Positions 867 through 32,775 of a stretch of DNA of 32,775 nucleotides are shown in pieces. The position numbers and the translations under genes were made by a program. This stretch comes from a virus: positions 1-32,775 of the IMG/VR virus record IMGVR_UViG_3300045988_041693. The stretch is one strand, 5' to 3'. Within the stretch, counting starts at the first letter, position 1. Each line of letters starts with the position of its first letter. The notes under the pieces were generated by a model. The model saw only the letters and a list, made by a program, of their open reading frames with translations, was not told the origin of the DNA and did no database searches.

Positions 867-908
867 CAAATATACGGCTTTTATCAATAGGTTGTACATT
901 CCGTTAAC
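867..908 (-). promoter_or_regulatory. Promoter-like element copy R1: GTTAAC-N28-TATATTTG on the minus strand (TAnnTTTG is the Bacteroidota -7 box)
   Basis: Plus strand has CAAATATA at 867-874 and GTTAAC at 903-908. The same bipartite spacing is seen at 18830-18871 and 23717-23758. A 21-nt stretch, CCTTTTGACATTACAAATATA, is identical to 23704-23724. Confidence 0.55.
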
Positions 909-930: not shown

Positions 931-1287
931 CTGTCTCACTTAAAACGTTGAAAACCAGGCATTTAAAAAATGAGATTTCAGACTGTGCCACCTCTCGAAA
1001 ATGCGCTGTCTCACTTAACGCGCTACAAACCAAGCCGTTACAACGGAAAAAGCCAACTGTGCCAGGTGAGGCTGACGTTTTCCTATAACTTTATTTGGGA
1101 TATATATAAAATACTACTATACTACGAATATTTAGTAGAGGGGGTAAATTTCAATAATCACCAAAATAAAGTGTTATACCATTTTCACTGTCTCACCTGG
1201 CACACCGCTATAAATAACTATAATACAGCAAGTTAAGTGAGACAAAGACTGTGCCACCTAAAAACGTTGCCTGGCACAGTGGCACAG
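931..1287. promoter_or_regulatory. Noncoding motif array A: CTGTGCCAC-family and CTGTCTCAC-family 9-mers around an AT-rich core
   Basis: CTGTGCCAC/G at 983, 1057 and 1249. Inverted copies at 1197, 1271 and 1279. CTGTCTCAC at 931, 1006 and 1188, with an inverted copy at 1237-1244. AT-rich core at about 1081-1180. Confidence 0.8.
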
Positions 1288-1338
1288 TTCGAGACGCAAA
1301 AAGGGCACATTCCGAAGAACGCACCCTTAAATCGTGTT

Positions 1339-14439: not shown

Positions 14440-14518
14440 GGTTTCATGTGCCGTTCATTAGTTAACGACGCACAAAAGTACGTAGTAAATCACTACGAAA
14501 CAAGCCGCGCCAAGTCTG

Positions 14519-15624: not shown

Positions 15625-16770
15625 CTATTTGGGGCGGTATTTACGTATTAGGTAATCCACGCCATAACGCAAAGCGTCGAGTGAGTGGTTCCAAGCGTCT
15701 ATGGGTTCGTTGGTGTACGTATCGGTTGCCTCGTCCTTTATCCACTTGTAATTATCCAGCTCGTCCAGCATCTTAACGCTTCTTTTCGTTACGTGCAGTT
15801 TGAACTGCGACACCTGGGCGATACCTGCCGATATTGAGCCGCGCCCCTTGACACACGGTATCGCTTTGATACGTCTTTGCTGTAGCTCCACAATACTCTT
15901 TTGCTCCGCACTGTCGCACACGGTAACGACGCGGTTAAGCCCCTGGCTCGTCAAGTAGTCCGCGATGGCGCTGTTAAGTAGACCCGTCTCATAGCAAAGA
16001 AGGTCTACGTACAAGTCCCATCCCTCAAAGCGTATATCAACAATGGCGGTGGGGTCGTTAACGAAACCGAAGTCAAGCCCGAGGCACCGCCCGGTGAACG
16101 TTTCCGGTAGCTCGTCTATTACCTCATAGCTGGGGTAAACGTTACCCTCTACACCGCCCGTCTCGCCCTCTCCGTAGACGCGCCACCAGTTGGCGTCGCC
16201 CTTGTTCTTCTCGATTGCGCCCACCTGCTCCTTGGTTAGGTACGGGTTATCCTTGTACGTTGAATGGATGGTTACGTACCTTTCGCCTACGAACTCGGTC
16301 TCACCCCAGAACTTTCTAACGGGGTTGTAGTCAATGATGACTTTTTTACGTGTACGGATATCAAGCTGCCTAAAGATTTCACGCGGTATGCCCTGCGCCT
16401 CATTGACATACAGAATATCACGTGCAGGACCATGTACCTTCGAGGCATTATCGACGCCAAAGAACTCTATCACGCACCCGTTGGGGTACGTGTAGCACCC
16501 CTCGGTCTTGTTGAACGCGTTCTCGTCCCAGACGCCCTCGGTTACCAGCATCTGCTTGAAGTCCCGTTGCATGCCTCGCTTCACCATAGGCAGCGTAGCG
16601 GCAACGCACGAAACGATGAGGGGCTTTACGGAGTTGGCGCAAAGGAGGTGCAACAGCTGCAACACCGCCCAGGTCTTGCCGGAACGCGTGCCGCCCTTTG
16701 ACGCGACACCACGTATCCGGGGGTCGACGAAAGCCGCCAACAGCTTTTCAAATGTATATGTTACATTCAT
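15625..16770 (-). CDS. terL: Terminase large subunit (PBSX/Terminase_3-like)
   Basis: Walker A KGGTRSGKT near the N-terminus, a DYNP block and a C-terminal nuclease-type region. The start overlaps the terS stop (TGATG). Confidence 0.88.
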   Translation of the reverse strand: MNVTYTFEKLLAAFVDPRIRGVASKGGTRSGKTWAVLQLLHLLCANSVKPLIVSCVAATLPMVKRGMQRDFKQMLVTEGVWDENAFNKTEGCYTYPNGCVIEFFGVDNASKVHGPARDILYVNEAQGIPREIFRQLDIRTRKKVIIDYNPVRKFWGETEFVGERYVTIHSTYKDNPYLTKEQVGAIEKNKGDANWWRVYGEGETGGVEGNVYPSYEVIDELPETFTGRCLGLDFGFVNDPTAIVDIRFEGWDLYVDLLCYETGLLNSAIADYLTSQGLNRVVTVCDSAEQKSIVELQQRRIKAIPCVKGRGSISAGIAQVSQFKLHVTKRSVKMLDELDNYKWIKDEATDTYTNEPIDAWNHSLDALRYGVDYLIRKYRPK

Positions 16771-17393
16771 CAGATACCCCCTAACTTTTGTAGGTTCTTG
16801 ACGGCGTCCTCGGAAAGCACATTGACCTGCATAGCCTTTGTGCCCGCCTCCTTACCGTTGCTCGTCACATCTTTAAGGTCTCGCAACCCTCGTAGCTTCG
16901 CCATGTAGTTGGCATCCACCATCCCGGCGAGGGCTGCTTCGTCCATCTCGGTGGTGATAAGCTCCTTTATCAGAGTGTAACCGAGTAGAAGGTTCTCTGC
17001 GTCGGGGTTCGTCTCGGAAGCCTTTTCCAGCTTCGCTATGTTCTTATTGAAGTCTTTTATAGACCAGCCTATGAAAAGGCAGAAGCCGCCAACAGAGGGC
17101 GCGCGTTTCTTCTCCACGGGTACTTTCTGCCCTGCTGCCGCACCGCCTTTCAATATCTCGTATTGGATATAGGGGTTCTTCTCGCAGAAGTTCATGTACT
17201 CCGCTACGTAATTAATACACTCGTCGATGCTGTTAAGCGTAGCGCCTTTAACGCCTCGTGTCTGCATGACCTCATAAAGTTGTGTGCATGCCTTTAGCTC
17301 GTCCTTTGGTTTCGGGGGTGTCCCGGTTGCCTGCCCTTTCTTGATTTCCTTTTTCGTATCGGGGACGGCTTCTTTCTTTGTTCTTCCTGCCAT
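16770..17393 (-). CDS. terS: Terminase small subunit (Terminase_2-like)
   Basis: KKRAPSVGGFCLFIGWSIKDF matches the conserved kkrP.t..Gl..fLGis block. Lies directly upstream of terL and is translationally coupled to it. Confidence 0.72.
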   Translation of the reverse strand: MAGRTKKEAVPDTKKEIKKGQATGTPPKPKDELKACTQLYEVMQTRGVKGATLNSIDECINYVAEYMNFCEKNPYIQYEILKGGAAAGQKVPVEKKRAPSVGGFCLFIGWSIKDFNKNIAKLEKASETNPDAENLLLGYTLIKELITTEMDEAALAGMVDANYMAKLRGLRDLKDVTSNGKEAGTKAMQVNVLSEDAVKNLQKLGGI

Positions 17394-17409
17394 AATCGTT
17401 AATTGGTTT

Positions 17410-17450
17410 TGTGCGCGCGTGGGTCAATAGTTAATGTCCATGTGCGCGCG
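17410..17450. promoter_or_regulatory. Direct repeat TGTGCGCGCG-N21-TGTGCGCGCG in the terS leader
   Basis: Exact 10-mers at 17410-17419 and 17441-17450, 17-57 nt upstream of the terS ATG. The GC-rich palindromic GCGCGC cores sit in an otherwise AT-rich region. Confidence 0.6.
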
Positions 17451-17555
17451 GTCTATTACTCCCTTAAGGGTGCGGGGACAAAAGTACATAACTTCTCACC
17501 ACAAACCAACCTGCAATCAGTCGTGAAAATCAAAAACATTTTACAAAGTAGGGGA

Positions 17556-17952
17556 TGGCACGGATAACGAACTGTCCCACAACGAGTTACAAGCGTTTTT
17601 GCCTACTGTGCCAGGCACGTTTCTGGTGGCACACCCCAGGTGGCACAGATAACTCGCTACGTATCAGAACGTTAGAGCGACTGTGCCACTGTGCCAGGCA
17701 AAAAGCACTTTTCTTACACTTGTTTTATAAAAAGTATTTATTACTGCTATCTCTACATTGCAATTACCATATATTTTTCCAAATAAAGTGTTATACCTAT
17801 TTTATACTATTTGGTGGCACAGCGTAGATAACTATATATAGGCCAGTGAGTTATCTGTGCCACTTGCTGTGCCACCCTACATTTTTCCCGGCACAGTAAC
17901 TGTTAATAGCATTGTGTACCAGTCAGTTAGGTGTGACAAGGACTGTGACAAG
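17556..17952. promoter_or_regulatory. Noncoding motif array B: about 10 copies of CTGTGCCAC/GTGGCACAG around an AT-rich core
   Basis: Forward copies at 17606, 17681, 17689, 17855 and 17867, with variant CTGTCCCAC at 17572. Inverted copies at 17626, 17640 and 17814, with a variant at 17888. AT-rich core at about 17700-17812. Confidence 0.8.
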
Positions 17953-18078
17953 CCTATATTTTTTACTCGCCGTAATTGATTATCAGCACGTTAGCACGAG
18001 GCGTCTTTTGATAAGGAATTTTCAATTAACAATCTAAACACTTTTTAAGAATTGAGATTTCATAAAATATAATTACAA

Positions 18079-18116
18079 AGGGCGATTTCTGACTATTTGT
18101 AAGCCGAAACCGCCCT
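18079..18116 (-). terminator. Probable rho-independent terminator ending the early operon
   Basis: In the minus-strand RNA, AGGGCGGUUUC-(16 nt)-GAAAUCGCCCU forms an 11-bp stem including one G-U pair, followed by UUUGUAAUUAUAUUUUAU. It lies 47 nt after the stop of the 137-aa gene. Confidence 0.6.
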
Positions 18117-18162
18117 TTTGCTATCATTTTTTAAAGGCATATGCTATTCGTAAGGGGTACTA

Positions 18163-18804: not shown

Positions 18805-18829
18805 AATCTTTGTTTTTAAATTGTTGATA

Positions 18830-18871
18830 CAAATATAACGCTTTTCCAGTTACGTCGGTTATTTCGTTAAC
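18830..18871 (-). promoter_or_regulatory. Promoter-like element copy R3 (GTTAAC-N28-TATATTTG on the minus strand)
   Basis: Plus strand has CAAATATA at 18830-18837 and GTTAAC at 18866-18871. It lies 26 nt upstream of the 38-aa ORF start. Confidence 0.5.
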
Positions 18872-18872
18872 A

Positions 18873-19022
18873 TCATTTAAGTATTAAACTATCTTTCAGC
18901 GATAGCCCGTACTCTAATTGCTGTAACTTGAAATTACGTTGTATGCTGTCCGCCACGTTCTGTACTACGGTGCAGCCTACCAATACGAGCAGGGCTGCAA
19001 TAACTGTTATTAACTTTTTCAT
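18873..19022 (-). CDS. Small lipoprotein (49 aa), absent from the ORF track
   Basis: Hand translation MKKLITVIAALLVLVGCTVVQNVADSIQRNFKLQQLEYGLSLKDSLILK. It has a signal peptide with lipobox L-V-G-C. The ATG overlaps the SNF2 helicase stop (ATGA). Confidence 0.55.
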   Translation of the reverse strand: MKKLITVIAALLVLVGCTVVQNVADSIQRNFKLQQLEYGLSLKDSLILK

Positions 19023-21567: not shown

Positions 21568-21591
21568 ACTTGTTTACTTTTAAATTTGATA

Positions 21592-21930
21592 TTACAAAGA
21601 TAATGGTTTTTGCGATACCTTGGTTACTTCCTTAACCTTGTTTAAGAAGAAAGTTATCGCGTTGTCCCTGCTCTCCAAATCGTCTATGACGAATACCGTA
21701 AAGCCGAGCGCCCTTAACTTCTCGTGGACGTAGGATTGTATCTTTGTCGGCTTCTTCCCGGTGGTCTTTATCTCGGCAAAGCCTACGTAACCGCCCCGGC
21801 AAATTACCATTCTATCGGGCAACCCCTTTACAAAGGTGGATAATAATTTTATTACCCACACTTTCTTTGTTCTGTTTAGGAGCTCGGAGAATGTACGCTC
21901 TAAATCTTTTTCACTTATTATATCCTTCAT
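21592..21930 (-). CDS. VRR-NUC domain nuclease
   Basis: GLPDRMVICRGGYVGFAEIKTTGKKPTKIQSYVHEKLRALGFTVFVI matches the VRR-NUC pattern G.PD...-G..-fvEvK..g.kls..Q...-..l...G..v.v. Confidence 0.8.
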   Translation of the reverse strand: MKDIISEKDLERTFSELLNRTKKVWVIKLLSTFVKGLPDRMVICRGGYVGFAEIKTTGKKPTKIQSYVHEKLRALGFTVFVIDDLESRDNAITFFLNKVKEVTKVSQKPLSL

Positions 21931-23675: not shown

Positions 23676-23716
23676 AATCTTAATTTTTAAATTGTTATTA
23701 TTTCCTTTTGACATTA

Positions 23717-23758
23717 CAAATATAGGGTTTATTCCTATACGTTGTATCTGTCATTAAC
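23717..23758 (-). promoter_or_regulatory. Promoter-like element copy R2 (GTTAAT-N28-TATATTTG on the minus strand), embedded in a 13-bp inverted repeat
   Basis: Plus strand has CAAATATA at 23717-23724 and ATTAAC at 23753-23758. The inverted repeat ATAGGGTTTATTC (23722-23734) / GAATAAACCCTAT (23768-23780) flanks it. Confidence 0.55.
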
Positions 23759-23804
23759 ACTGTTTAAGAATAAACCCTATTTTAGTCAATCTGTTAACAA
23801 GCCG

Positions 23805-26255
23805 TTAACTTTCGGACTTGGTATCGGCGTCTGCGTTAACAATTCTTTTGAATCCCCTTTGTTGCCCGTATGACTTCACGCGCTGTCTGCTACGCTCCCA
23901 TCCCGGTAACTTGTTCAGTATGTCGTTAATCTCGGAAGCGTCTTTAGCCCTAATTTTCCCTACCTCGAAGCCTAAAGCCTCAACCAGCACGCCCGTAGCG
24001 CTAACGAAGTCCATTTGCACGCAGTCTTCCTTCTTTATCTCGTCTTCATTGTAATTCTCGTAATACATGCGTCGTTCCAGGGGGAACATTCTATCCCAGT
24101 TTGCCGGCACGTACATATCACAATATCTTGCAACGGCTTCGGTACGCGGGTCTGTCTCGAAGTGTTCCTCCCTGCCTTGTTCTGCGATTACCTCCGCTTC
24201 CGCTGACAACAACGTAGACACACCGCGGAAATACATGTTAACGGCTTCCGCCCATAACTGGTCTACGTATGCCGGGAAATCAGCCTCGAAGATAAGATGG
24301 GTGTTTTCGTTGGCACGTACACGCACGGGTAGGAATCTACGCCCCCCGGTTGCGTCCTTCAAAAACTCGTCCTTATTGGTTGTACCAAAGAAAACGCACT
24401 GGCGCGGAAAGTTCTTGGTAACGCGCCCGTACGCCGGTCTAAAACTGTCCTCGGTCTTGGTGATGAAATTCTTAACCATCTCCACTTCTGAACGTCTCAT
24501 TGCTGATAACTCGGCAATTTCCAAGATCCAGCTACCTTGCAATTGCTCAAACGCTGACTTGCCATCCATCGTTGACAAGCTATCCGAGAACCATTGCTTG
24601 CCGAGCATCTTAAGGAATGTACTTTTCCCTGCTCCCTGGTCTGACTGCAAGACCAGCATACTATCGAATTTGCAACCTTTTTGGAAGATACGTTTAACCG
24701 CACCTACCATCATGATACGGAACGCCTCGCGGGTGTATATGTTATCCTCTGCACCGAGTATGTCAATCAACGCTGTATCTACGCGCTGCGTGCCGTCCCA
24801 TTCTAATTTTGTCAGATAGTTCTGCACCGGGTGGAAAGAGTTAATCTCGGCAACCAGTGATATAGCATCATCTACCTTAAACGAGCTACTAATGCCGTAA
24901 ACATCTTCTATATGTTTTCTAACGCCTGCAAAATCTACGTCTTGAAAGTCCGTGCTGCTATCCTTTGGTCTCCATATTGGGGTACGGGTAACAACCCTGC
25001 GTTCTTTAAATAGGTCACGGGCTATCAAGCCTTTTAAATTCGGGTCATACTTAAGTATTAAACCCAGGTTCTTTGCGCTCGGCAAGTAATTGCCTTTTTT
25101 ATCTACTTCGAGTTCCGCCATCACTTTTTCAAATGATACCTCGGGCACGTTATCGTGAACATCTTCGGGATCTATCGTCTCCTCGAAGTCGTTCATAACC
25201 TCGGCAGCCTTTACCAGCAAACGAGACGCGCGCATTTCCGCTACCTTTGCGTCCTTGTTTACAAGTTCGTTCATTGCGTCCGTTGACTTCTTACGGTCTT
25301 GTCCCTTATCCATCTTACCGAACTTGTGCACACGTACAAGGTCGTAGGCGTTAAACACGTGGTTGCCTTGGATGGGGTCGTTGTTGTGGAACGAATAGGC
25401 GAACTTATCATCAAAAGTAAGCATACCGCCCGATGTAGAACCCCCGGTATATGTCCATCTGTCGGGCTGGTCTGTCGGCTCGTAGACGTCCGGCAAATAT
25501 TCCGCGATGACTTCTGAAATGGTGTACGCCCGGCAAAAGTCACCTACCGTGCCTTCCTTTAAAGTGGGGTCTTGCTGCTCCTTAACAAAGGTACGTACTT
25601 CGCCTTTCTCATCCTTGTGGTATGCCCATTCCGTTGTGTCGTGCCAATCTTCGTACATGTTAAGGTATTCGTTGACGTCTAAAGGAAACTCGCACAACTG
25701 TGAATAGTCGGTGTAATCATAGTCTACGTCTCGGGACACGGATGGGAAGAACATACAGCGTTCGGGCTGGAAGGTCGTTCGGTCATACAAATCTATCCCG
25801 GTAATCTCGGCAACCTTCCTGGCAATAGCTTCGTACTGCTCACCGTCCACGGGTTCGGACAACGGAATGATAACACGATAGCGAAACACCCCTGCTTTCG
25901 GATTATGCTTATGTGTCCCGTGTATGATGCAGGCACAATTTATTGCCGCGAAAAAACGCTCCGGGAAGTCAGTCTCCCCGAAGTCGATGTCAAGCGTCAA
26001 TAGTGAGCGTTCGCCTACGTTGTTTTTGTTACGTCTGCTACCGAATAACTCGCCACCCATGAATGCGCCTACGTCTTTAATTGCACCTTGTTCAGCTTTG
26101 CTCGCTGCCGTGAACTCACGGTATGTTTCTTCCGTTACTTTCGCACTGGTGAACCTCTTTACAAGATCTTCCCATGTGTAGGTACGGTTTTTCCAACTTA
26201 CCGACTTCGCATTAGTAGCGGTCGCAACCTTAAAAGTCATTTTCTTTAAATCCAT
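23805..26255 (-). CDS. Bifunctional primase-polymerase (AEP-like N-terminus) fused to a VirE/D5-type P-loop NTPase
   Basis: The N-terminus has LLTLDIDFG (DxD), HGTHKH and RYRVIIPL, all AEP-like blocks. The central region has Walker A SDQGAGKST and a downstream VirE-like region. Confidence 0.85.
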   Translation of the reverse strand: MDLKKMTFKVATATNAKSVSWKNRTYTWEDLVKRFTSAKVTEETYREFTAASKAEQGAIKDVGAFMGGELFGSRRNKNNVGERSLLTLDIDFGETDFPERFFAAINCACIIHGTHKHNPKAGVFRYRVIIPLSEPVDGEQYEAIARKVAEITGIDLYDRTTFQPERCMFFPSVSRDVDYDYTDYSQLCEFPLDVNEYLNMYEDWHDTTEWAYHKDEKGEVRTFVKEQQDPTLKEGTVGDFCRAYTISEVIAEYLPDVYEPTDQPDRWTYTGGSTSGGMLTFDDKFAYSFHNNDPIQGNHVFNAYDLVRVHKFGKMDKGQDRKKSTDAMNELVNKDAKVAEMRASRLLVKAAEVMNDFEETIDPEDVHDNVPEVSFEKVMAELEVDKKGNYLPSAKNLGLILKYDPNLKGLIARDLFKERRVVTRTPIWRPKDSSTDFQDVDFAGVRKHIEDVYGISSSFKVDDAISLVAEINSFHPVQNYLTKLEWDGTQRVDTALIDILGAEDNIYTREAFRIMMVGAVKRIFQKGCKFDSMLVLQSDQGAGKSTFLKMLGKQWFSDSLSTMDGKSAFEQLQGSWILEIAELSAMRRSEVEMVKNFITKTEDSFRPAYGRVTKNFPRQCVFFGTTNKDEFLKDATGGRRFLPVRVRANENTHLIFEADFPAYVDQLWAEAVNMYFRGVSTLLSAEAEVIAEQGREEHFETDPRTEAVARYCDMYVPANWDRMFPLERRMYYENYNEDEIKKEDCVQMDFVSATGVLVEALGFEVGKIRAKDASEINDILNKLPGWERSRQRVKSYGQQRGFKRIVNADADTKSES

Positions 26256-26258
26256 TCC

Positions 26259-28277
26259 CTAATCTTTTTTATAATAGTCTGTTATGTAACCAGCTGCTCG
26301 CAACGGGATGTTAGCCGCCCACCCTGGGGCGCTGCACATCGCGTCTATCATCGCGTTAAGCGTTAATTCTTCGTTCCCGTCTTTAGGTATTTCCGCGGCT
26401 ATTTCGTCGTGCACATGCAGCACGATGTTATAACCCATATCGAATACCTTGAAAATCGCATTAGCCAATAAATCGCGGCTTATCGCCTGCACAATGTTCT
26501 CCGTTAGCTTGCCTCCGTAAGTGTGTAACTTCGCCCATTTGCCCGTGGTTTGCTCTTGCCCCATGTAGGATATATCCTGCACGTCGAACTCACCGTTCGT
26601 TCCCGATATTGTTCTACTGCTTAAACGCGCGGAGGGGTAAAAAAGTTTTCGCCCAGACGGTAATTCTATAGTCATCGCACCGCCCTCGTATCTGAACGTT
26701 ATCGTAGAAAGATCATCAATAACGAACGTTTGTGGTCTACGTGTTCCTATACACGCTTTTGCAGCATTTTCTAAAGACTTCCATAAAGATACTACTTTTT
26801 TGTTAGCTTCTCTCCATTTTGACAATATTTGAGGTTTTTCTTCTTCTGTTAACGCTTTCTTGGTATCCATCGTAGTAAGGGCGTTAACCCCGCCCCCATA
26901 ACCTAATGCAAGCTCGGCAACCTTTCCGCGCTGTCTTAACTCATCGCCTTTATGGACGGGAACACCGAACATCTTGGAGGCAGAAGCGCAATATATATCA
27001 GCCTTTGGGTCTTTGAACAAATCAAGCCTCCATTTTTCGTTAGCCACCCAGGCAATCACACGTGCCTCAATTGCCGAGAAGTCAGCCACTGAAAAGGTGT
27101 ACCCTTCCGGGGCGATAAACACGGTACGGATAAGCTGCGATAGTATATGAGTAGGCTTGTCATATATAACTTCCATCATATCAAGGTCGTGCATCTTTGC
27201 AAGGTCTCGTGCCCCGTCAAGGTCTTCGATGTGGTTCTGTGGTAAGTTCTGTAATTGAACAAGGCGCCCAGCCCATCGCCCGGTACGGCTCGCGCCATAG
27301 TAACGAAATAGTCCTCTAATACGGTCTCCGCGTCCTGCACTTGCAAGGATGGCGGTATATTTAGCGTTCGACGTTTTACCTATCTCCCTACGTAGGTCGA
27401 TAACGTCTAATACTGCTTGCTTATCCACGTCGGTAACGTTTTTAAGGCTCGCTACGGTCTTTATAACATCTTCGATACTATTCTTATTGAGGGAATCAAT
27501 AACCACGCCCGTACGCTCTTTAATGAAGCCTTTTAACTGTGGCATGGACTTCAGAGAACTTAATCCAAAATCCTTTTCGGCTTTTTCGGTTAGACGCGCT
27601 TTATATTCTTCGTCCATATCCTGTGCGGCGCGTGCCAGCTCGAGGTCTGCCCGTATACCGTAATCGTTTATACGCTGGTCTGCCGCATATATCTTTTGCT
27701 CTATCTCGGGAAATTCAAACCGTGATAACTTGCCGAATATTTCCTTTTCAGAAAGCACGTCATAGCGGAGGTATTCTTTGAAATCTTCCCAGGCTTCCGG
27801 GTCATGCTCGGGAAGGTTACGGGTACGCCCACCGTTCGTTTTGGTAGGTTTGCACGGTACGGAGAAATAACGGATAAGGTTTTTTCCCGTGCCTAATTTC
27901 TTATCCTGCAAATCGAGAATCCGCGAAACCGCGTCAAGCGATGGCGGCATACCGCAATAGAGCGCCATATTAGCCGTACAGAAAAATCGCATAGGGCTTA
28001 TATCAAAACCGTATTCCTTCAAACAGACGCGCTCAAACGTAGCGTTGTGGGCTACTATAACTACTTCCGGGTCATTAGCTACAGAGGTGAACAACTCGTT
28101 AAACTCTGTACACCCGTTGGGGGTTGTAAGGTCTATTATTGATACCTCCGTGTCGGTGTCCCACATGTAACCGCACAACAGTATTTCAAATGCAGGGTCT
28201 TCACAATACTTGTAGTTGCCAGCGCTTTTAATATCTGTTTCGGAATAGGTTTCAAAATCAATGAATAAATGTTTCAT
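26259..28277 (-). CDS. Family A DNA polymerase with an N-terminal 3'-5' exonuclease domain
   Basis: Exo I FIDFETYS. Pol motif A DFSAIEARV. Motif B RQRGKVAELALGYGGG. Motif C LHVHDEI. Confidence 0.92.
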   Translation of the reverse strand: MKHLFIDFETYSETDIKSAGNYKYCEDPAFEILLCGYMWDTDTEVSIIDLTTPNGCTEFNELFTSVANDPEVVIVAHNATFERVCLKEYGFDISPMRFFCTANMALYCGMPPSLDAVSRILDLQDKKLGTGKNLIRYFSVPCKPTKTNGGRTRNLPEHDPEAWEDFKEYLRYDVLSEKEIFGKLSRFEFPEIEQKIYAADQRINDYGIRADLELARAAQDMDEEYKARLTEKAEKDFGLSSLKSMPQLKGFIKERTGVVIDSLNKNSIEDVIKTVASLKNVTDVDKQAVLDVIDLRREIGKTSNAKYTAILASAGRGDRIRGLFRYYGASRTGRWAGRLVQLQNLPQNHIEDLDGARDLAKMHDLDMMEVIYDKPTHILSQLIRTVFIAPEGYTFSVADFSAIEARVIAWVANEKWRLDLFKDPKADIYCASASKMFGVPVHKGDELRQRGKVAELALGYGGGVNALTTMDTKKALTEEEKPQILSKWREANKKVVSLWKSLENAAKACIGTRRPQTFVIDDLSTITFRYEGGAMTIELPSGRKLFYPSARLSSRTISGTNGEFDVQDISYMGQEQTTGKWAKLHTYGGKLTENIVQAISRDLLANAIFKVFDMGYNIVLHVHDEIAAEIPKDGNEELTLNAMIDAMCSAPGWAANIPLRAAGYITDYYKKD

Positions 28278-28282
28278 ATTTG

Positions 28283-28996
28283 TTAATTAATTAATGATAT
28301 GTATAGTTTTTCTGTTGCCCGTTTACTTGTCCTCCCGAGAGAGGAATTTATATCGAGGCTCCACGTTGGTATGAATAGGTCAGATCTTGTGGAATATTCG
28401 CTTACAAAAACCGTGTTACTTTCGGACATCATATCAGCCCAATGCCAAAATCTATCATGGTCAAACCCTCCGTTTTTGTATAGCTTTGTGCCGTCATACG
28501 GGGGGTCGCAATATATAACACTGTTTTCGGGTATTTCCATTTCATTGTATGGCAGTGAAGATAGAGTTAATGAGGGCATGTCTCGCAGGGACTTCACAGT
28601 TTTATTGAAATTTCTTATAGCCTCTTTTTGGTAATCCCTTTTTCCCTTCGCAGTAGGACATCCATTTCCCACGAACCCTTCGAAATATCGACCATTATAC
28701 GATGCACAAAAACCGATATACGCAGTTAATGCTTTGTCGTATTCTCCGTTTTTCGCTGCCCTATACATTTCAATATCTACGTACTCGGGGAATGTACGCC
28801 CCGAAATATCTTCTTTAAATAAACATATTAGGTCTTCGTTTAGATCGTTCGCAAAAACTCTCCCAGCAAAATGGGGGGTTATGTTACACCCTCCGCAGAA
28901 CGGCTCAAACAACATTCCGTTTGATTTCTTTACAGCATCGTTTATTATTGGGGCCGTGTGTTTGGCAAACATTGCCTTACTTCCCATGTAATTCAT
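28283..28996 (-). CDS. Dam-like (D12 class) N6-adenine DNA methyltransferase, intact
   Basis: YMGSK, EPFCGGCNI (FxGxG AdoMet motif) and IYCDPPY (motif IV). Confidence 0.88.
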   Translation of the reverse strand: MNYMGSKAMFAKHTAPIINDAVKKSNGMLFEPFCGGCNITPHFAGRVFANDLNEDLICLFKEDISGRTFPEYVDIEMYRAAKNGEYDKALTAYIGFCASYNGRYFEGFVGNGCPTAKGKRDYQKEAIRNFNKTVKSLRDMPSLTLSSLPYNEMEIPENSVIYCDPPYDGTKLYKNGGFDHDRFWHWADMMSESNTVFVSEYSTRSDLFIPTWSLDINSSLGRTSKRATEKLYISLIN

Positions 28997-31313: not shown

Positions 31314-31342
31314 CGTTACGTTGGTTCTTTCGTTAACTTCTT

Positions 31343-32521
31343 TTATGAATTTAATTCCTCAAACATATCCAAAGTAGGTTGTATTGGTTCTCTTTTATCG
31401 CTTTCCGGTGCGAGCGTTGGCGCGCCCTGGGGCTTAATTATTACACCGTCCAGCAGAACCGTTAACGGCTTCTTTCCTACGGTCCGTTCCAGGTCTCCGA
31501 TACCTTTTATCTTCGTATTGATAAGGGATTCCCGGTCAAAACCTGCCTCCGTTAGCCGTTTTAAGGCTTCTGCTTCGTCTTTAATGACCCGTGCCGACCT
31601 GCCTTCCACCAGCTTCCATCCGTTAATGTGCTTACCGCTTAAGGCTTCGTACATCGCAAACTGTTTAACTGATGCCAACCAATCGGTAAACATGTCTGCC
31701 TTACTCAGTATACCCCCTATTTCTTCCAAAGATAGGGCTTTGGTTTCTCCGTGGGTCTCGAACTCATTAACAAGTGCATCACGTTGCGCCCGGCATTGGG
31801 CTTTGAACTTGCAGAATCTGCAGTGTGTCCCCACTTTCGCTTCTCCCTGCCCGGCAAATGCTTTCTCAGCCGTGGGTCTTAGTACGTGTATCGCCCAGTG
31901 GGTTAAATCTCGTGACGTCATCTCGAATACCGGGAAATGCCCCAGACGTACTTGTGCAATGTGCATACGTACCATTTCGATTTTGGACTGCTTTTCTGGG
32001 GGCAAAGAGCGAAGGACACCGAGCGCATATAGCATTAGCTGCGTGTTGTTCTCGGCTTCCACCCTCACGCCCTTTCCATACTTAAGGTCTATGATGTTTA
32101 GAACCTTTTCGCCTACTATGTCGCAGTCGCAGCTACCGAAACAATCGGGTACGTACATTGTTAGGTCAAACTTTCGTTCTATACTCATTTCCGCGCCCTC
32201 TACGACCTCGTAAACGTCGCACACGTAACATACGTAGTCGGTTACGTACTTATCCATCTCGGGGCTGTAATACTTGTTTTCCGCAATCTCTTTTGGTACG
32301 GGCAATTCATCAAGTAATGGGGTGTATTCCCCAGCCAAATACTTTCTTATTGCGTGCTCGGCTAACTCGTGAGCTACTGTTCCTTCTTCCGATGCCGCGC
32401 TTCCCGTGCCCGGTATGTTTTCTTCCAACCGTGCGGACGGTGTACACTGCATCCAGCGGTGTGAGCTACTGGGAGATAGGAGCGCATGCGCGCGCTCGCT
32501 ATGGTTTATCTGTTCTTTCAT
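31343..32521 (-). CDS. PD-(D/E)XK / Cas4-like exonuclease (DUF2800 family)
   Basis: N-terminal HALLSPSSSHRWMQCTPSARLEE is the DUF2800 signature. There is an internal D...DLKYGKG nuclease core and a C-terminal Cys cluster, CRFCKFKAQC. Confidence 0.8.
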   Translation of the reverse strand: MKEQINHSERAHALLSPSSSHRWMQCTPSARLEENIPGTGSAASEEGTVAHELAEHAIRKYLAGEYTPLLDELPVPKEIAENKYYSPEMDKYVTDYVCYVCDVYEVVEGAEMSIERKFDLTMYVPDCFGSCDCDIVGEKVLNIIDLKYGKGVRVEAENNTQLMLYALGVLRSLPPEKQSKIEMVRMHIAQVRLGHFPVFEMTSRDLTHWAIHVLRPTAEKAFAGQGEAKVGTHCRFCKFKAQCRAQRDALVNEFETHGETKALSLEEIGGILSKADMFTDWLASVKQFAMYEALSGKHINGWKLVEGRSARVIKDEAEALKRLTEAGFDRESLINTKIKGIGDLERTVGKKPLTVLLDGVIIKPQGAPTLAPESDKREPIQPTLDMFEELNS

Positions 32522-32775
32522 CTTGTCAAGGGGTAATTTTCAATGCGTTGTTTAAGCAATGCGAATTTAGAAGGGTTAACCTTTGAAAGTGAGGTACCAC
32601 CGAACTCCAAAAGTATAGATGCCATCTCGTCACGGGTAACGTGTCCAGACTTCACACTGGATATTACGAGGTGTTGCATCTCCTTTAAAGTAGGTGCTTC
32701 ACCCTTTGTCTCGTTGTATACCTTTGCAGGTTCTTCTGCCTTTGCAGGTTCTTCTGCCTTTGCAGGTTCTTCTGC
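32518..32775 (-). CDS. Hypothetical protein, C-terminal part of the junction-spanning gene (see 1-325)
   Basis: Hand translation from the window end: (AEEPAK)x3 VYNETKGEAPTLKEMQHLVISSVKSGHVTRDEMASILLEFGGTSLSKVNPSKFALLKQRIENYPLTR, then a stop. The TGA overlaps the ATG of the DUF2800 gene (ATGA). Confidence 0.6.
   Translation of the reverse strand, partial: AEEPAKAEEPAKAEEPAKVYNETKGEAPTLKEMQHLVISSVKSGHVTRDEMASILLEFGGTSLSKVNPSKFALLKQRIENYPLTR
32721..32775. repeat. 18-bp tandem repeat, three units, identical to the units at the window start
   Basis: CCTTTGCAGGTTCTTCTG occurs three times at 32721-32774. The last 43 nt of the window equal nt 1-43. Confidence 0.95.

What the first reader, a model, noticed from the sequence alone, without database searches (positions are those of the whole stretch)
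931..1287. Second, paralogous copy of the motif-array region 16 kb away, with an extra motif family; the two copies bracket the late operon
Region 931-1287 repeats the architecture of 17556-17952.
- It has CTGTGCCAC/G copies at 983, 1057 and 1249.
- It has inverted copies at 1197, 1271 and 1279.
- It has an AT-rich core.
- An identical 17-mer, AAATAAAGTGTTATACC, occurs at 1164-1180 and at 17781-17797.
- In both regions the 17-mer is followed by TGGCACA(C/G)CG.TA.ATAACTATA.
- In both regions it lies about 100 bp (107 versus 92) after a CTGTGCCAGG.

The two noncoding regions are therefore homologous rather than merely similar in composition. Region A also carries a second motif, CTGTCTCAC(TTAA), at 931, 1006 and 1188, with an inverted copy at 1237-1244. 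Region B essentially lacks this motif.

Region A sits after the last late gene (end 1339) and before the early promoter-like element and the first early gene. Region B sits after the last early gene and before terS. A duplicated cis-element at both early/late boundaries of a single-strand circular gene map is unusual. It could reflect paired origins (as in SPP1 oriL/oriR), DNA looping between operator clusters, or insulator/terminator-promoter cassettes read by one phage factor.
Basis: seen in the sequence. Interest (0 to 1): 0.72.

Follow-up and report, generated by a model that had tools for sequence, protein, structure and literature searches.

The report
Twin replication origins in Bacteroides phage
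The two look-alike noncoding stretches are most likely two copies of the phage's replication origin, each studded with short binding sites for the phage's own primase-helicase, an arrangement shared by a whole family of gut Bacteroides phages but not described before.

Summary
CTGTGCCA occurs 13 times in the window, 12 of them in 931-1287 and 17556-17952 (0.5 expected). The 17-mer is exact in both regions. A versus B gives a local alignment score of 58, against 19±2 for shuffles.

The window is a circular ~32.7 kb Bacteroides siphophage with every gene on the minus strand. Every related genome whose sequence covers both intergenic regions (28 loci) has exactly two copies of the same ~250-350 bp element. 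One copy follows the lysis genes and the other lies upstream of terS, about half a circle apart.

The scaffold of the element is conserved between phages. The short boxes change as a set, and always identically in both copies. In a proteome-wide test, box type covaries only with three or four residues in the C-terminal beta-hairpin of the phage primase-helicase (z 15-17; next best 4.7). That protein is a structural homologue of SaPI1 Rep, a self-loading initiator-helicase whose winged-helix C-terminal domain binds iterons flanking an AT-rich centre.

Best reading: two paralogous iteron-type replication origins. Whether both fire, or one is an auxiliary or fork-barrier site as proposed for SPP1 oriR, is open. 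This is a new variant of a known kind, and origin function is untested.

The parts
931..1288 (+). Element A, origin-like module between the late-operon terminator and the early promoter.
   Evidence: The relatives-only HMM hit covers 1077-1237. The boxes are located. The element is homologous to the 'A' copies of all relatives.
931..1066 (+). Left arm of A, with direct boxes CTGTCTCAC (931, 1006) and CTGTGCCAC/G (983, 1057). It is organised as a 75-bp tandem duplication (923-968 / 998-1043).
   Evidence: (D11).
1075..1187 (.). AT-rich core of A (74% AT). It contains the family-conserved 20-mer CCAAAATAAAGTGTTATACC at 1161-1180.
   Evidence: It is among the 4-5 least stable 80-bp windows in the genome. 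The core pattern recovered 40 loci, of which 38 are family elements.
1188..1288 (.). Inner and right-arm boxes of A. These are CTGTCTCAC at 1188 (+), TGGCACA at 1198 (-), TTAAGTGAGACAA at 1233-1245 (-), CTGTGCCAC at 1249 (+), and CCTGGCACAGTGGCACAG at 1270-1287 (two boxes, -).
   Evidence: The opposite orientation to the left arm gives inverted boxes flanking the AT-rich core.
17556..17952 (+). Element B, the paralogous origin-like module between the early-operon terminator and the late (terS) promoter.
   Evidence: The relatives-only HMM hit covers 17639-17826. The boxes are located. The element is conserved in sister contigs.
17556..17698 (.). Left arm of B. It holds TGGCACGG at 17556 (-, degenerate), CTGTCCCAC at 17572 (+), CTGTGCCAGG at 17606 (+), TGGCACA at 17627 (-), GTGGCACAG at 17640 (-), and CTGTGCCACTGTGCCAGG at 17681-17698 (two boxes, +).
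   Evidence: Positions 17680-17701 are the perfect inverted copy of 1267-1288 (I4).
17699..17812 (.). AT-rich core of B (77% AT). It contains TTGCTATCTCTACATTGCAAT, conserved in more distant relatives, and the 17-mer at 17781-17797.
17814..17952 (.). Right arm of B. It holds GTGGCACAG at 17814 (-), CTGTGCCAC at 17855 and 17867 (+), CGGCACAG at 17887 (-, degenerate), and the decayed boxes GTGTGACA / CTGTGACA at 17928-17952.
23805..26255 (-). Primase-helicase (816 aa), proposed to be the initiator that reads the boxes. It has an N-terminal primase region, a VapE/SF3 helicase domain at residues 481-698 and a C-terminal winged helix.
   Evidence: - Pfam PF05272 matches.
- PHROG 256 (helicase) and 9765 (primase) match.
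- PDB 7PDS (SaPI1 Rep) matches at E 2e-76 by sequence.
- The AlphaFold model has pLDDT 87.
- The Foldseek hit to 7PDS has TM 0.85 and E 9e-38.
23844..23900 (-). Codons for residues 786-804, the beta-hairpin 'wing' of the C-terminal winged-helix domain (WERSRQRVKSYGQQRGFKR). It is the proposed specificity determinant.
   Evidence: In the model the strands are 786-793 and 797-804. These are the only columns in the proteome that track box type, with z 16.6, 15.4, 14.7 and 7.2.
1301..1328 (-). Intrinsic terminator of the late operon, immediately upstream of element A in the direction of transcription.
   Evidence: The hairpin has dG -19.8 kcal/mol and z -3.8, and is followed by a U run.
18075..18121 (-). 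Intrinsic terminator after the last early gene, upstream of element B in the direction of transcription.
   Evidence: The hairpin has dG -24.5 kcal/mol and z -5.7, and is followed by a U-rich tail.
867..874 (-). Bacteroides-type -7 box (TATATTTG) of the early promoter, about 57 bp downstream of element A.
   Evidence: It is part of the five-member promoter repeat family (D2/D4). The consensus TAnnTTTG is taken from established knowledge of Bacteroides promoters.
17479..17505 (-). Candidate late promoter (TTTG-N15-TACTTTTG), about 50 bp downstream of element B and upstream of terS (16770-17393).
   Evidence: A paralogous box lies at 14473 (D17).

Best explanation
Regions 931-1288 and 17556-17952 are two old paralogous copies of the phage's iteron-type replication origin.

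Each copy has an AT-rich, easily melted core (about 110 bp, 74-77% AT). The core is flanked and interrupted by 8-9 bp boxes, CTGT[GC][CT]CA[C/G], in both orientations.

Proposed mechanism:
1. The boxes are bound by the winged-helix C-terminal domain of the phage's 816-aa primase-helicase. This protein is a fused primase plus a SaPI-Rep-like SF3 self-loading helicase.
2. Binding to oppositely oriented boxes on either side of the core assembles helicase rings and melts the core.
3. The N-terminal primase and the adjacent phage DNA polymerase I then start synthesis.

Shown here:
- The two copies are homologous.
- The pair is conserved across the family.
- Both copies of a genome always carry the same box type.
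- Box type covaries exclusively with the wing of the helicase's C-terminal domain.
- The helicase is homologous in sequence and structure to an experimentally characterised iteron-binding initiator.
- In distant homologues an iteron/AT-rich cluster sits directly 3' of the helicase gene.

Inferred only:
- Physical binding of the domain to the boxes.
- Melting of the core.
- Actual origin firing.
- The role of having two copies. Either both fire, which would roughly halve replication time because they are about 180 degrees apart, or one copy acts as an auxiliary or fork-arrest site.
For: (1) The boxes are concentrated in the two regions: 12 of 13 CTGTGCCA and 16 of 18 CTGTSYCA lie there.

(2) Every relative has a ~200-230 bp duplicated segment in the same two intergenic regions.
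- nhmmer never finds more than two copies per locus.
- It finds exactly two in 28 loci that span both regions.
- The pair is also present in Phocaeicola phage BV200P1 and B. thetaiotaomicron phage SJC25, whose helicases are 60% and 42% identical to the window's.

(3) The scaffold is conserved while the boxes switch as a set between phages. The box types seen are CTGTGCA, CTGGTCA, CTGTGTC, CTGTGTAA, CTGTACA, TGGAACA, TGTTACAA, GATAGAT and, here, CTGTGCCA. The A and B copies were of the same type in every genome where both were typed.

(4) The scaffolds of A and B evolve independently. A-A and B-B identity between genomes is 85%, but A-B within a genome is 70%. The shared box type is therefore not explained by wholesale gene conversion.

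- The only outliers are helicase columns 793, 794, 796 and 803, with z 16.6, 15.4, 14.7 and 7.2.
- The next best column anywhere has z 4.7.
- Helicase residues 1-700 are equally similar for same-type pairs (96.4%) and different-type pairs (96.3%).
- The wing-to-box pairs recur on different sequence backgrounds: NGKT with CCTGCACAG in 26 of 27 cases, GR[RK]A with CTGGTCA in 4 of 4, and [DE]A[KR] with CTGTGTAA in 8 of 8.

(6) The covarying residues lie in the beta-hairpin wing of a helix-turn-helix domain (AlphaFold pLDDT 87).
- The whole C-terminal 450 residues superpose on SaPI1 Rep, PDB 7PDS (TM 0.85, E 9e-38).
- A sequence profile of the C-terminal domain matches 7PDS at E 1.3e-8.

(7) SaPI Reps bind iterons through this winged-helix domain. 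SaPI origins have 6-12 iterons, an AT-rich centre and at least two iterons on each side pointing in opposite directions (PMC9371898). The layout here is the same.

(8) In distant homologues L109 and L106 an iteron cluster plus an AT-rich stretch starts at the stop codon of the helicase gene. This is the SaPI position.

(9) The AT-rich cores are the 4th and 5th least stable 80-bp windows in the genome.

(10) SPP1 is a precedent for two similarly organised origins bound by one initiator (PMC6316719).
Against: - No experiment or replication-profile data exist for this phage family.
- GC skew is monotonic. Skews at four-fold degenerate sites give no origin or terminus signal.
- The elements are 6-8 kb from the helicase gene. 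SaPI, L106 and L109 keep the origin next to it.
- Covariation shows co-selection of wing and boxes, not what the binding is used for.
- Other intergenic promoter regions are as AT-rich as the cores.
- The invariant core CCAAAATAA[AT]GT[GT]TTA[CT][AC]CC is unexplained by the model.
- Parabacteroides phage PM21P1 seems to have boxes in only one of the two regions, so two copies are not obligatory.
Confidence: 0.7

Rival explanations
1. One true origin plus one auxiliary copy. Only one element fires. The other is a helicase-bound cis-acting partner. It could be an enhancer that loops to the origin, like P4 crr. It could also be a protein-DNA roadblock that stalls the fork and triggers the theta-to-concatemer switch, as proposed for SPP1 oriR.
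For: - SPP1 gp38 binds both oriL and oriR, and oriR is proposed to be a fork-stalling site (PMC6316719, PMC3485210).
- The phage encodes the recombination set needed for restart: a DUF2800-type exonuclease, a Gp2.5-like annealing protein, and in relatives a VRR-NUC nuclease.
- The A and B scaffolds are distinct and separately conserved: A-A is 85% against A-B 70%. This hints at non-identical roles.
- PM21P1 appears to manage with one cluster.
- P4 ori/crr, both bound by the primase-helicase alpha, is cited from my own knowledge and was not verified in the library.
Against: - Both copies keep the full layout, namely the AT-rich core, the conserved 20-mer and inverted boxes on both sides, across helicases down to 42% identity. 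A mere roadblock or enhancer would need only the boxes.
- Nothing in the sequence says which copy would be the real origin.
Confidence: 0.3
2. Transcription-control modules. The box clusters are operator or enhancer arrays that regulate the adjacent early and late promoters or insulate the two operons. They would be read by a phage DNA-binding protein, possibly the helicase's C-terminal domain acting like SV40 T antigen, with no origin function.
For: - Each element lies between an intrinsic terminator and the next promoter's -7 box, about 50-60 bp upstream of it.
- Both operon boundaries carry one element.
- A shared factor could coordinate the early-to-late switch.
Against: - The only covarying protein is a replicative primase-helicase whose homologue is an origin initiator.
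- No HTH regulator or small early protein tracks box type; the maximum z is 4.7.
- In L106 and L109 the same kind of cluster sits right after the helicase gene, the position SaPI origins occupy.
- The other five early-type promoters of the window have no such boxes.
- An AT-rich core flanked by inverted boxes is origin-like rather than operator-like.
Confidence: 0.1
3. Packaging signals. The elements are pac/cos recognition arrays for the small terminase, whose gene starts about 160 bp from element B.
For: - Element B is directly upstream of terS (16770-17393), a common place for pac sites.
- Small terminases often bind repeated motifs.
Against: - TerS does not covary with box type; its maximum normalised MI is 0.30 across 31 sequences.
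- A second copy half a genome away, after the lysis genes, makes no sense for headful or cos packaging.
- All deposited genomes are circularly permuted assemblies without defined ends at these sites.
Confidence: 0.03
4. Sigma-54-type promoters or small-RNA genes. TGGCAC resembles the -24 element of RpoN promoters, and the duplicated element could encode a noncoding RNA.
For: - TGGCACA occurs 8 or more times.
- The element is noncoding and conserved.
Against: - No TGGCAC copy is followed by TTGC at the -12 spacing (sequence).
- Relatives replace the box by unrelated words at the same positions: CTGGTCA, CTGTGTAA, GATAGAT.
- There is no Rfam match in the window.
- There is no Bacteroides -7 box inside either element on either strand.
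- Boxes occur in both orientations.
Confidence: 0.02

Closest known systems
SaPI replication origins and their Rep / PriRep initiator-helicases (Staphylococcus aureus pathogenicity islands; PMC9371898)
   Same: - The initiator is homologous. The phage protein matches SaPI1 Rep (PDB 7PDS) over the helicase and C-terminal domain, with sequence E 2e-76, profile E 1.3e-8 for the C-terminal domain, and Foldseek TM 0.85.
- It is fused to a primase, as in SaPI5 PriRep.
- The origin layout is the same: short iterons, an AT-rich centre, and at least two iterons on each side in opposite orientation.
- Specificity is matched between the winged-helix domain and the iterons.
   Different: - This is a lytic-type Bacteroides siphophage, not a satellite island.
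- The boxes are 8-9 bp rather than 5-6 bp.
- The origin is not immediately downstream of the initiator gene but 6-8 kb away.
- It is present twice, about half a circle apart, at the two operon boundaries.
- There is an extra invariant 20-bp core with no SaPI counterpart that I know of.
Bacillus phage SPP1 oriL / oriR (PMC6316719, PMC3485210)
   Same: - There are two origins in one phage genome, with similar organisation (repeats plus an AT-rich unwinding element).
- Both are bound by the same phage initiator.
- One lies in an intergenic segment bracketed by transcription signals in the late region.
- All genes are on one strand.
   Different: - The initiator, gp38, is unrelated and needs a separate loader (gp39) and a DnaB-type helicase (gp40).
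- oriL lies inside gene 38.
- The two origins are 13 kb apart in a 44 kb genome, not antipodal.
- Here the initiator is itself the helicase and the primase.
Satellite phage P4 ori and crr, bound by the alpha primase-helicase (from my own knowledge; not found in the searchable library)
   Same: - A single polypeptide combines a primase, an SF3 helicase and a C-terminal winged-helix origin-binding domain.
- Its iterons occur in two separated clusters, both needed in cis.
   Different: - crr is a repeat of iterons without a full second origin and lies 4.5 kb from ori.
- P4 alpha showed no significant sequence match in the PDB searches run here.
- Here the two copies are complete paralogous modules.

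Membership tests
Iteron-type origin served by a SaPI-Rep-like self-loading SF3 initiator-helicase | The genome encodes an initiator with an SF3/VapE helicase core and a C-terminal winged-helix domain homologous to Rep. | tested here: met
   - Pfam PF05272 matches.
- 7PDS matches at E 2e-76.
- The C-terminal domain profile matches 7PDS residues 306-464 at E 1.3e-8.
- The AlphaFold model (pLDDT 87) has an HTH plus a beta-hairpin at residues 753-804.
- Foldseek gives TM 0.85 to 7PDS.
Iteron-type origin served by a SaPI-Rep-like self-loading SF3 initiator-helicase | A cluster of short repeats with an AT-rich centre and at least two repeats on each side pointing in opposite directions. | tested here: met
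   - A has plus-strand boxes at 931-1066, a core at 1075-1187 (74% AT), and minus-strand boxes at 1198, 1237, 1272 and 1280.
- B has plus-strand boxes at 17681 and 17689, a core at 17699-17812 (77% AT), and a minus-strand box at 17815, with further boxes in both orientations.
Iteron-type origin served by a SaPI-Rep-like self-loading SF3 initiator-helicase | Repeat sequence and the initiator's DNA-binding domain are specificity-matched. | tested here: met
   Proteome-wide mutual information singles out the helicase wing columns alone, with z 14.7-16.6 against at most 4.7 elsewhere. The wing-to-box pairs are tabulated. This is statistical, not biochemical, evidence.
Iteron-type origin served by a SaPI-Rep-like self-loading SF3 initiator-helicase | [quoted passage not shown] | tested here: not met
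   - In the window the nearest element (B) ends about 5.9 kb from the helicase stop codon.
- No box cluster follows the gene.
- The feature is met in the distant homologues L106 and L109.
Iteron-type origin served by a SaPI-Rep-like self-loading SF3 initiator-helicase | The element supports initiator-dependent replication, and the initiator binds and melts it. | not testable with these tools
   This needs EMSA or footprinting, plasmid origin assays, or marker-frequency sequencing.
Dual-origin phage genomes (SPP1-type oriL/oriR) | Two separate loci of similar organisation (repeats plus an AT-rich unwinding element) recognised by one initiator. | tested here: met
   - There are two and only two copies.
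- They are homologous.
- They carry the same box type in each genome.
- A single protein covaries with the boxes.
- Recognition itself is inferred.
Dual-origin phage genomes (SPP1-type oriL/oriR) | The initiator is a gp38-type origin-binding protein working with a separate loader and a DnaB-type helicase. | tested here: not met
   The initiator here is a fused primase and SF3 helicase. No DnaB or loader match appeared among the 17 window proteins scanned against Pfam or PHROGs. The resemblance is analogous, not homologous.
Sigma-54 (RpoN) promoters | TGGCAC-N5-TTGC, that is, -24 and -12 elements at fixed spacing. | tested here: not met
   None of the TGGCAC copies is followed by TTGC at the required spacing (sequence). 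The box is replaced by unrelated words in relatives.

The most novel reading that the evidence does not exclude
The twin antipodal modules may be more than redundant origins. They could be a combined replicator and temporal switch.
- The helicase bound at the copy upstream of the late promoter would couple the onset of replication to late transcription.
- The copy upstream of the early promoter would shut down or insulate early transcription, in the manner of SV40 T antigen at its origin.
- Pairing of the two helicase-bound copies (handcuffing or looping across half the genome) would set the timing of the theta-to-concatemer switch.

A by-product is that the wing-to-box pairs form a small, readable recognition code. 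That code defines replication 'incompatibility types' among co-infecting gut Bacteroides phages.
Probability: 0.15. Interest if true: 0.75.

Novelty: new variant of a known kind. Interest (0 to 1): 0.58.

Why it matters
No replication origin is described in the two papers that report these abundant gut Bacteroidales siphophages, the 'Tigiphages' and the proposed 'Bacteroiduroviridae'. Neither paper mentions origins, iterons or repeats.

If the reading is right, it supplies three things.
- The origins and the cognate initiator for a whole family of human-gut phages. These would be useful for building replicons and engineering phages in Bacteroides.
- A second, independent example, besides SPP1, of a phage that keeps two full origins. 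This one is conserved across helicases down to 42% identity and is always about half a circle apart, which makes the purpose of dual origins testable by comparison.
- A natural series of about ten matched wing and box variants of a SaPI-Rep-type winged helix. This is effectively a ready-made specificity table for mutational tests of how these self-loading helicases read DNA.

Tried and rejected
- Rfam scan of the whole window: no family matched.
- GC skew and cumulative skew: monotonic and dominated by the one-strand gene arrangement.
- Skews at four-fold degenerate sites by segment: the late and early halves differ in AT skew (-0.10 against +0.08), but there is no interpretable origin or terminus pattern.
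- Whole-protein identity screen for a protein in which BU183P2 (CTGGTCA type) is an outlier: nothing stood out. Column-level analysis was needed.
- Raw mutual information was inflated for hypervariable small ORFs. Permutation z-scores removed them.
- AlphaFold model of the C-terminal 147 residues with a 3-sequence alignment: pLDDT 60, discarded.
- Word-indexed homologue search with the C-terminal domain alone: only 2 hits.
- Homology between the L106 origin and the Bacteroides element: only a shared 14-mer, TTTCTAAACTTTAA. nhmmer and the local alignment were not significant, so this was not used as evidence.
- The sigma-70 promoter scan is irrelevant for Bacteroides. The terminator scan missed the real hairpins because of its loop limit, so I folded them directly.
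- Canonical Bacteroides -7 box inside the elements: none on either strand.
- Sigma-54 reading of TGGCAC: rejected, because there is no -12 element.
- Literature searches for the isolate names returned nothing.
- The two family papers do not mention origins, iterons or repeats.
- ORFs overlapping the elements (970-1236 and 17555-17827, plus strand) are on the non-coding strand of the genome. They have no consistent counterpart in the relatives' annotations and are treated as spurious.
Full report
**What the window is.** The 32,775-bp window is a complete, circularly permuted phage genome. Its ends overlap: 7-55 equals 32721-32769. All long ORFs lie on the minus strand. Megablast links it at about 77-79% identity to Bacteroides uniformis siphophages of about 34 kb, including C2_18_80S2P, BU2-1, BU241P1 and EMB1. 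These belong to the 'C2 Tigiphages' (PMC9727126) and the proposed 'Bacteroiduroviridae' (PMC12694917).

Read in the direction of transcription (high to low coordinates), region B (17556-17952) follows the last early gene and precedes terS (16770-17393). Region A (931-1288) follows the last lysis-module gene, whose stop codon is at 1339, and precedes the first early genes.

**Check of the observation.**
- CTGTGCCA occurs 13 times in the window, 12 of them in A or B, against 0.53 expected.
- The broader box CTGTSYCA occurs 18 times, 16 of them in A or B, against 2.2 expected.
- The 17-mer is exact in both regions.
- A 22-nt perfect inverted match joins 1267-1288 to 17680-17701.
- The A-versus-B local alignment scores 58, against 19.3±2.4 for shuffles.
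- An HMM built only from other phages' elements picks out exactly 1077-1237 and 17639-17826, both on the plus strand.

The regions are therefore homologous. The CTGTCTCAC 'second family' differs from CTGTGCCAC at two central positions. B carries the intermediate CTGTCCCAC at 17572. Sister contigs have TTAAGTGAGACA at the right end of B, where this window has the decayed GTGTGACA. I therefore treat it as a variant of one box.

**The pair is a family trait.** Self-BLAST of eight related isolate genomes shows, in each, a 125-230 bp segment duplicated between the same two intergenic regions at 76-95% identity. In this window the two copies have simply diverged further.

A scan of IMG/VR with the conserved core CCAAAATAAWGTKTTAYMCC returned 40 loci, of which 38 are family elements. 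A second scan with the helicase returned 63 loci. An element HMM never finds more than two copies per locus, and it finds exactly two in 28 loci that span both regions.

The pair also exists in two more distant phages:
- Phocaeicola phage BV200P1, whose helicase is 60% identical and whose box is TGGAACA.
- B. thetaiotaomicron phage SJC25, whose helicase is 42% identical and whose box is GATAGAT.

In all complete genomes the two copies are in direct orientation and 46-54% of the circle apart. Parabacteroides phage PM21P1 seems to have boxes only upstream of terS.

**Anatomy.** Aligning the copies shows a conserved scaffold made of:
- a left arm with boxes;
- an AT-rich core of about 110 bp, ending in the invariant 20-mer;
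- two boxes directly after the 20-mer;
- a short TATA-rich stretch;
- a pair of boxes in the opposite orientation;
- a T-run;
- further boxes.

In the window the cores are 74% and 77% AT, against 54% for the genome. They rank 4th and 5th among the least stable 80-bp windows.

On the coding strand each element sits just after a strong hairpin terminator. These are at 1301-1328 (dG -19.8, z -3.8) and 18075-18121 (dG -24.5, z -5.7). Each element also lies about 50-60 bp before a Bacteroides-type -7 box, at 867-874 and 17479-17486. No such box lies inside either element on either strand.

**The boxes change as a set.** Between phages the scaffold stays and the boxes are replaced at all positions. 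The types seen are CTGTGCA, CTGGTCA, CTGTGTC, CTGTGTAA, CTGTACA, TGGAACA, TGTTACAA/TGTGACAA, GATAGAT and, in this clade, CTGTGCCA/CTGTCTCA. In every genome where both copies could be typed, A and B have the same type.

Yet the scaffolds of A and B evolve apart. A-A and B-B identity between genomes is 85%, while A-B within a genome is 70%, about the same as A-B between genomes at 68%. So the two copies are old paralogues that are not homogenised wholesale. What keeps the boxes in step must act in trans.

- Three adjacent columns of the primase-helicase stand alone, with z 16.6, 15.4 and 14.7 and adjusted MI 0.83, 0.70 and 0.68. A fourth column nearby has z 7.2.
- The best column in any other protein has z 4.7, and it lies in hypervariable small ORFs.
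- TerS, the DNA polymerase and the genes next to the elements show nothing.
- Residues 1-700 of the helicase are equally similar for same-type and different-type pairs (96.4% against 96.3%). The signal is therefore not clade structure.
- The pairs recur on different backgrounds: NGKT with CCTGCACAG (26 of 27), GR[RK]A with CTGGTCA (4 of 4, two backgrounds), and [DE]A[KR] with CTGTGTAA (8 of 8).
- Two lineages with TGGAACA boxes both have G-N-[VA] where this phage has G-Q-Q.

**What that protein is.** The 816-aa protein (23805-26255, minus strand) has a VapE-like SF3 helicase domain and matches phage primase and helicase families.
- By sequence it matches one solved structure, 7PDS (E 2e-76).
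- A profile of its C-terminal 150 residues alone matches 7PDS residues 306-464 at E 1.3e-8, running through the winged helix.
- An AlphaFold model with a 54-sequence alignment has pLDDT 87. It shows helices 753-760 and 770-782 followed by a beta-hairpin at 786-793 and 797-804.
- The covarying columns map to window residues Q791, R792 and Q799 in that hairpin.
- Foldseek superposes the C-terminal 450 residues on 7PDS with TM 0.85 and E 9e-38. Weaker hits are SaPI5 PriRep, the NrS-1 helicase, the ASFV primase-helicase (AsfvPrimPol) and the mpox virus E5 primase-helicase.

7PDS is the SaPI1 Rep-DNA complex. According to PMC9371898, SaPI Reps are self-loading initiator-helicases whose C-terminal winged helix recognises iterons. 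SaPI origins have 6-12 iterons around an AT-rich centre, with at least two iterons on each side in opposite orientation. SaPI5 fuses the primase to Rep.

**Support from distant homologues.** In two IMG/VR contigs whose helicases are 37-38% identical, a cluster of 7-9 boxes with an AT-rich stretch and inverted copies begins at the helicase stop codon, the SaPI position. The boxes are TGGAAACA in L109 and GTAAACAA in L106. This ties box clusters of this kind to this helicase family independently of the Bacteroides phages. A shared 14-mer between the L106 cluster and the Bacteroides scaffold is not statistically supported and is not used.

**Mechanism proposed.**
1. Early transcription makes the primase-helicase.
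2. Its winged helix binds the boxes in A and B.
3. Oppositely oriented boxes on either side of the AT-rich core position helicase rings that melt the core.
4. The N-terminal primase and the neighbouring DNA polymerase I (26259-28277) start synthesis.

The box-to-wing coupling and the homology to Rep are shown here. Binding, melting and firing are inferred by analogy.

Why two copies exist is open. Both may fire. Being antipodal, that would roughly halve the time to copy the circle. Alternatively one may act like SPP1 oriR, where the bound initiator is thought to stall the fork and trigger the switch to concatemer synthesis (PMC6316719, PMC3485210). It might also act like P4 crr (from my own knowledge). 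The position of each copy just upstream of an operon promoter leaves room for a link to the early/late switch.

**Rivals.**
- A pure transcription-control role is disfavoured. The only covarying protein is the replicative helicase. The other five early-type promoters lack boxes. In distant relatives the cluster follows the helicase gene.
- A packaging role is disfavoured by the lack of TerS covariation and by the second copy.
- Sigma-54 promoters and RNA genes are excluded. There is no -12 element, no Rfam hit and no promoter box, and the boxes are replaceable.

**Novelty and limits.** Iteron origins read by Rep-like SF3 helicases are known, and so is a two-origin phage (SPP1). Three things are new here:
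- the combination, namely two complete SaPI-type origin modules placed far from the initiator gene, at both operon boundaries and about 180 degrees apart, conserved across a large family of gut Bacteroidales phages;
- a legible wing-to-box specificity series;
- the absence of any mention of origins, iterons or repeats in the two papers that describe the family.

Everything rests on sequence comparison. No replication or binding data exist, skew analyses were uninformative, and the invariant 20-mer is unexplained.

Noticed in passing
848-924, 18811-18887, 21576-21652, 23698-23774, 31315-31354 (minus strand): This is a five-member repeat family. Each member carries a Bacteroides-type -7 box (TAnnTTTG at 867, 18830, 21595, 23717 and 31296) and a conserved upstream TTAAATnnTGTTAACG-like segment. 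They are probably the early/middle promoters, with a shared upstream regulator site.
   Followed up: partly
14472-14508 and 17478-17514 (minus strand): The two sites share ACAAAAGTAC, which reads as a TACTTTTG -7 box on the coding strand. One is upstream of terS and one is inside the late region. They are candidate late promoters of a type different from the early family.
   Followed up: partly
1-73 and 32685-32775: The window ends overlap (7-55 equals 32721-32769) inside an 18-bp tandem repeat, CCTTTGCAGGTTCTTCTG. On the coding strand this would encode a short peptide repeat. The circular assembly was broken inside this repeat, so its copy number may be uncertain.
   Followed up: no
650-710 and 750-810: A 61-nt direct repeat (79% identity, 100 bp apart) lies between the early promoter and the first early ORF. 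It contains CCCTTTCACTTTTCAATCTTTCC. Its function is unknown.
   Followed up: no
17405-17455: The GC-rich decamer TGTGCGCGCG occurs twice, about 30 bp apart, in the leader between the candidate late promoter and the terS start. It could be an RNA structure or a terminase-related site.
   Followed up: no
1161-1180 and 17778-17797; relatives: The core CCAAAATAA[AT]GT[GT]TTA[CT][AC]CC does not change when the boxes change, and it is kept in both copies of all close relatives. The origin model does not explain it. It could be a primase start site or a host-factor site.
   Followed up: partly
L109:9550-9830 and L106:12386-12660: In two distant phage contigs, iteron clusters begin at the stop codon of the homologous primase-helicase gene. 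The boxes are TGGAAACA (about nine copies) in L109 and GTAAACAA (seven copies) in L106. Each cluster has an AT-rich stretch and inverted copies. Only a single cluster was seen in the 19-22 kb available.
   Followed up: partly
L113 (Parabacteroides phage PM21P1) 17380-18000 versus 34520-34930: CTGTATA-type boxes occur upstream of terS, but no repeats were found in the region after the lysis genes. This may be a one-origin member of the wider family.
   Followed up: partly
Whole window, four-fold degenerate sites: AT skew on the coding strand is -0.10 in the late half (1.3-17.4 kb) and +0.08 in the early half (18.1-32.8 kb). It changes sign roughly at the two elements. This could reflect replication direction, expression level or different gene origins.
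   Followed up: no
L006:6916-8398 and L008:5165-6630: A ~750-bp tandem duplication at 83-84% identity occurs in two relatives. It corresponds to two adjacent Dam methylase genes. The window has a single D12-class methyltransferase at 28283-28996.
   Followed up: no
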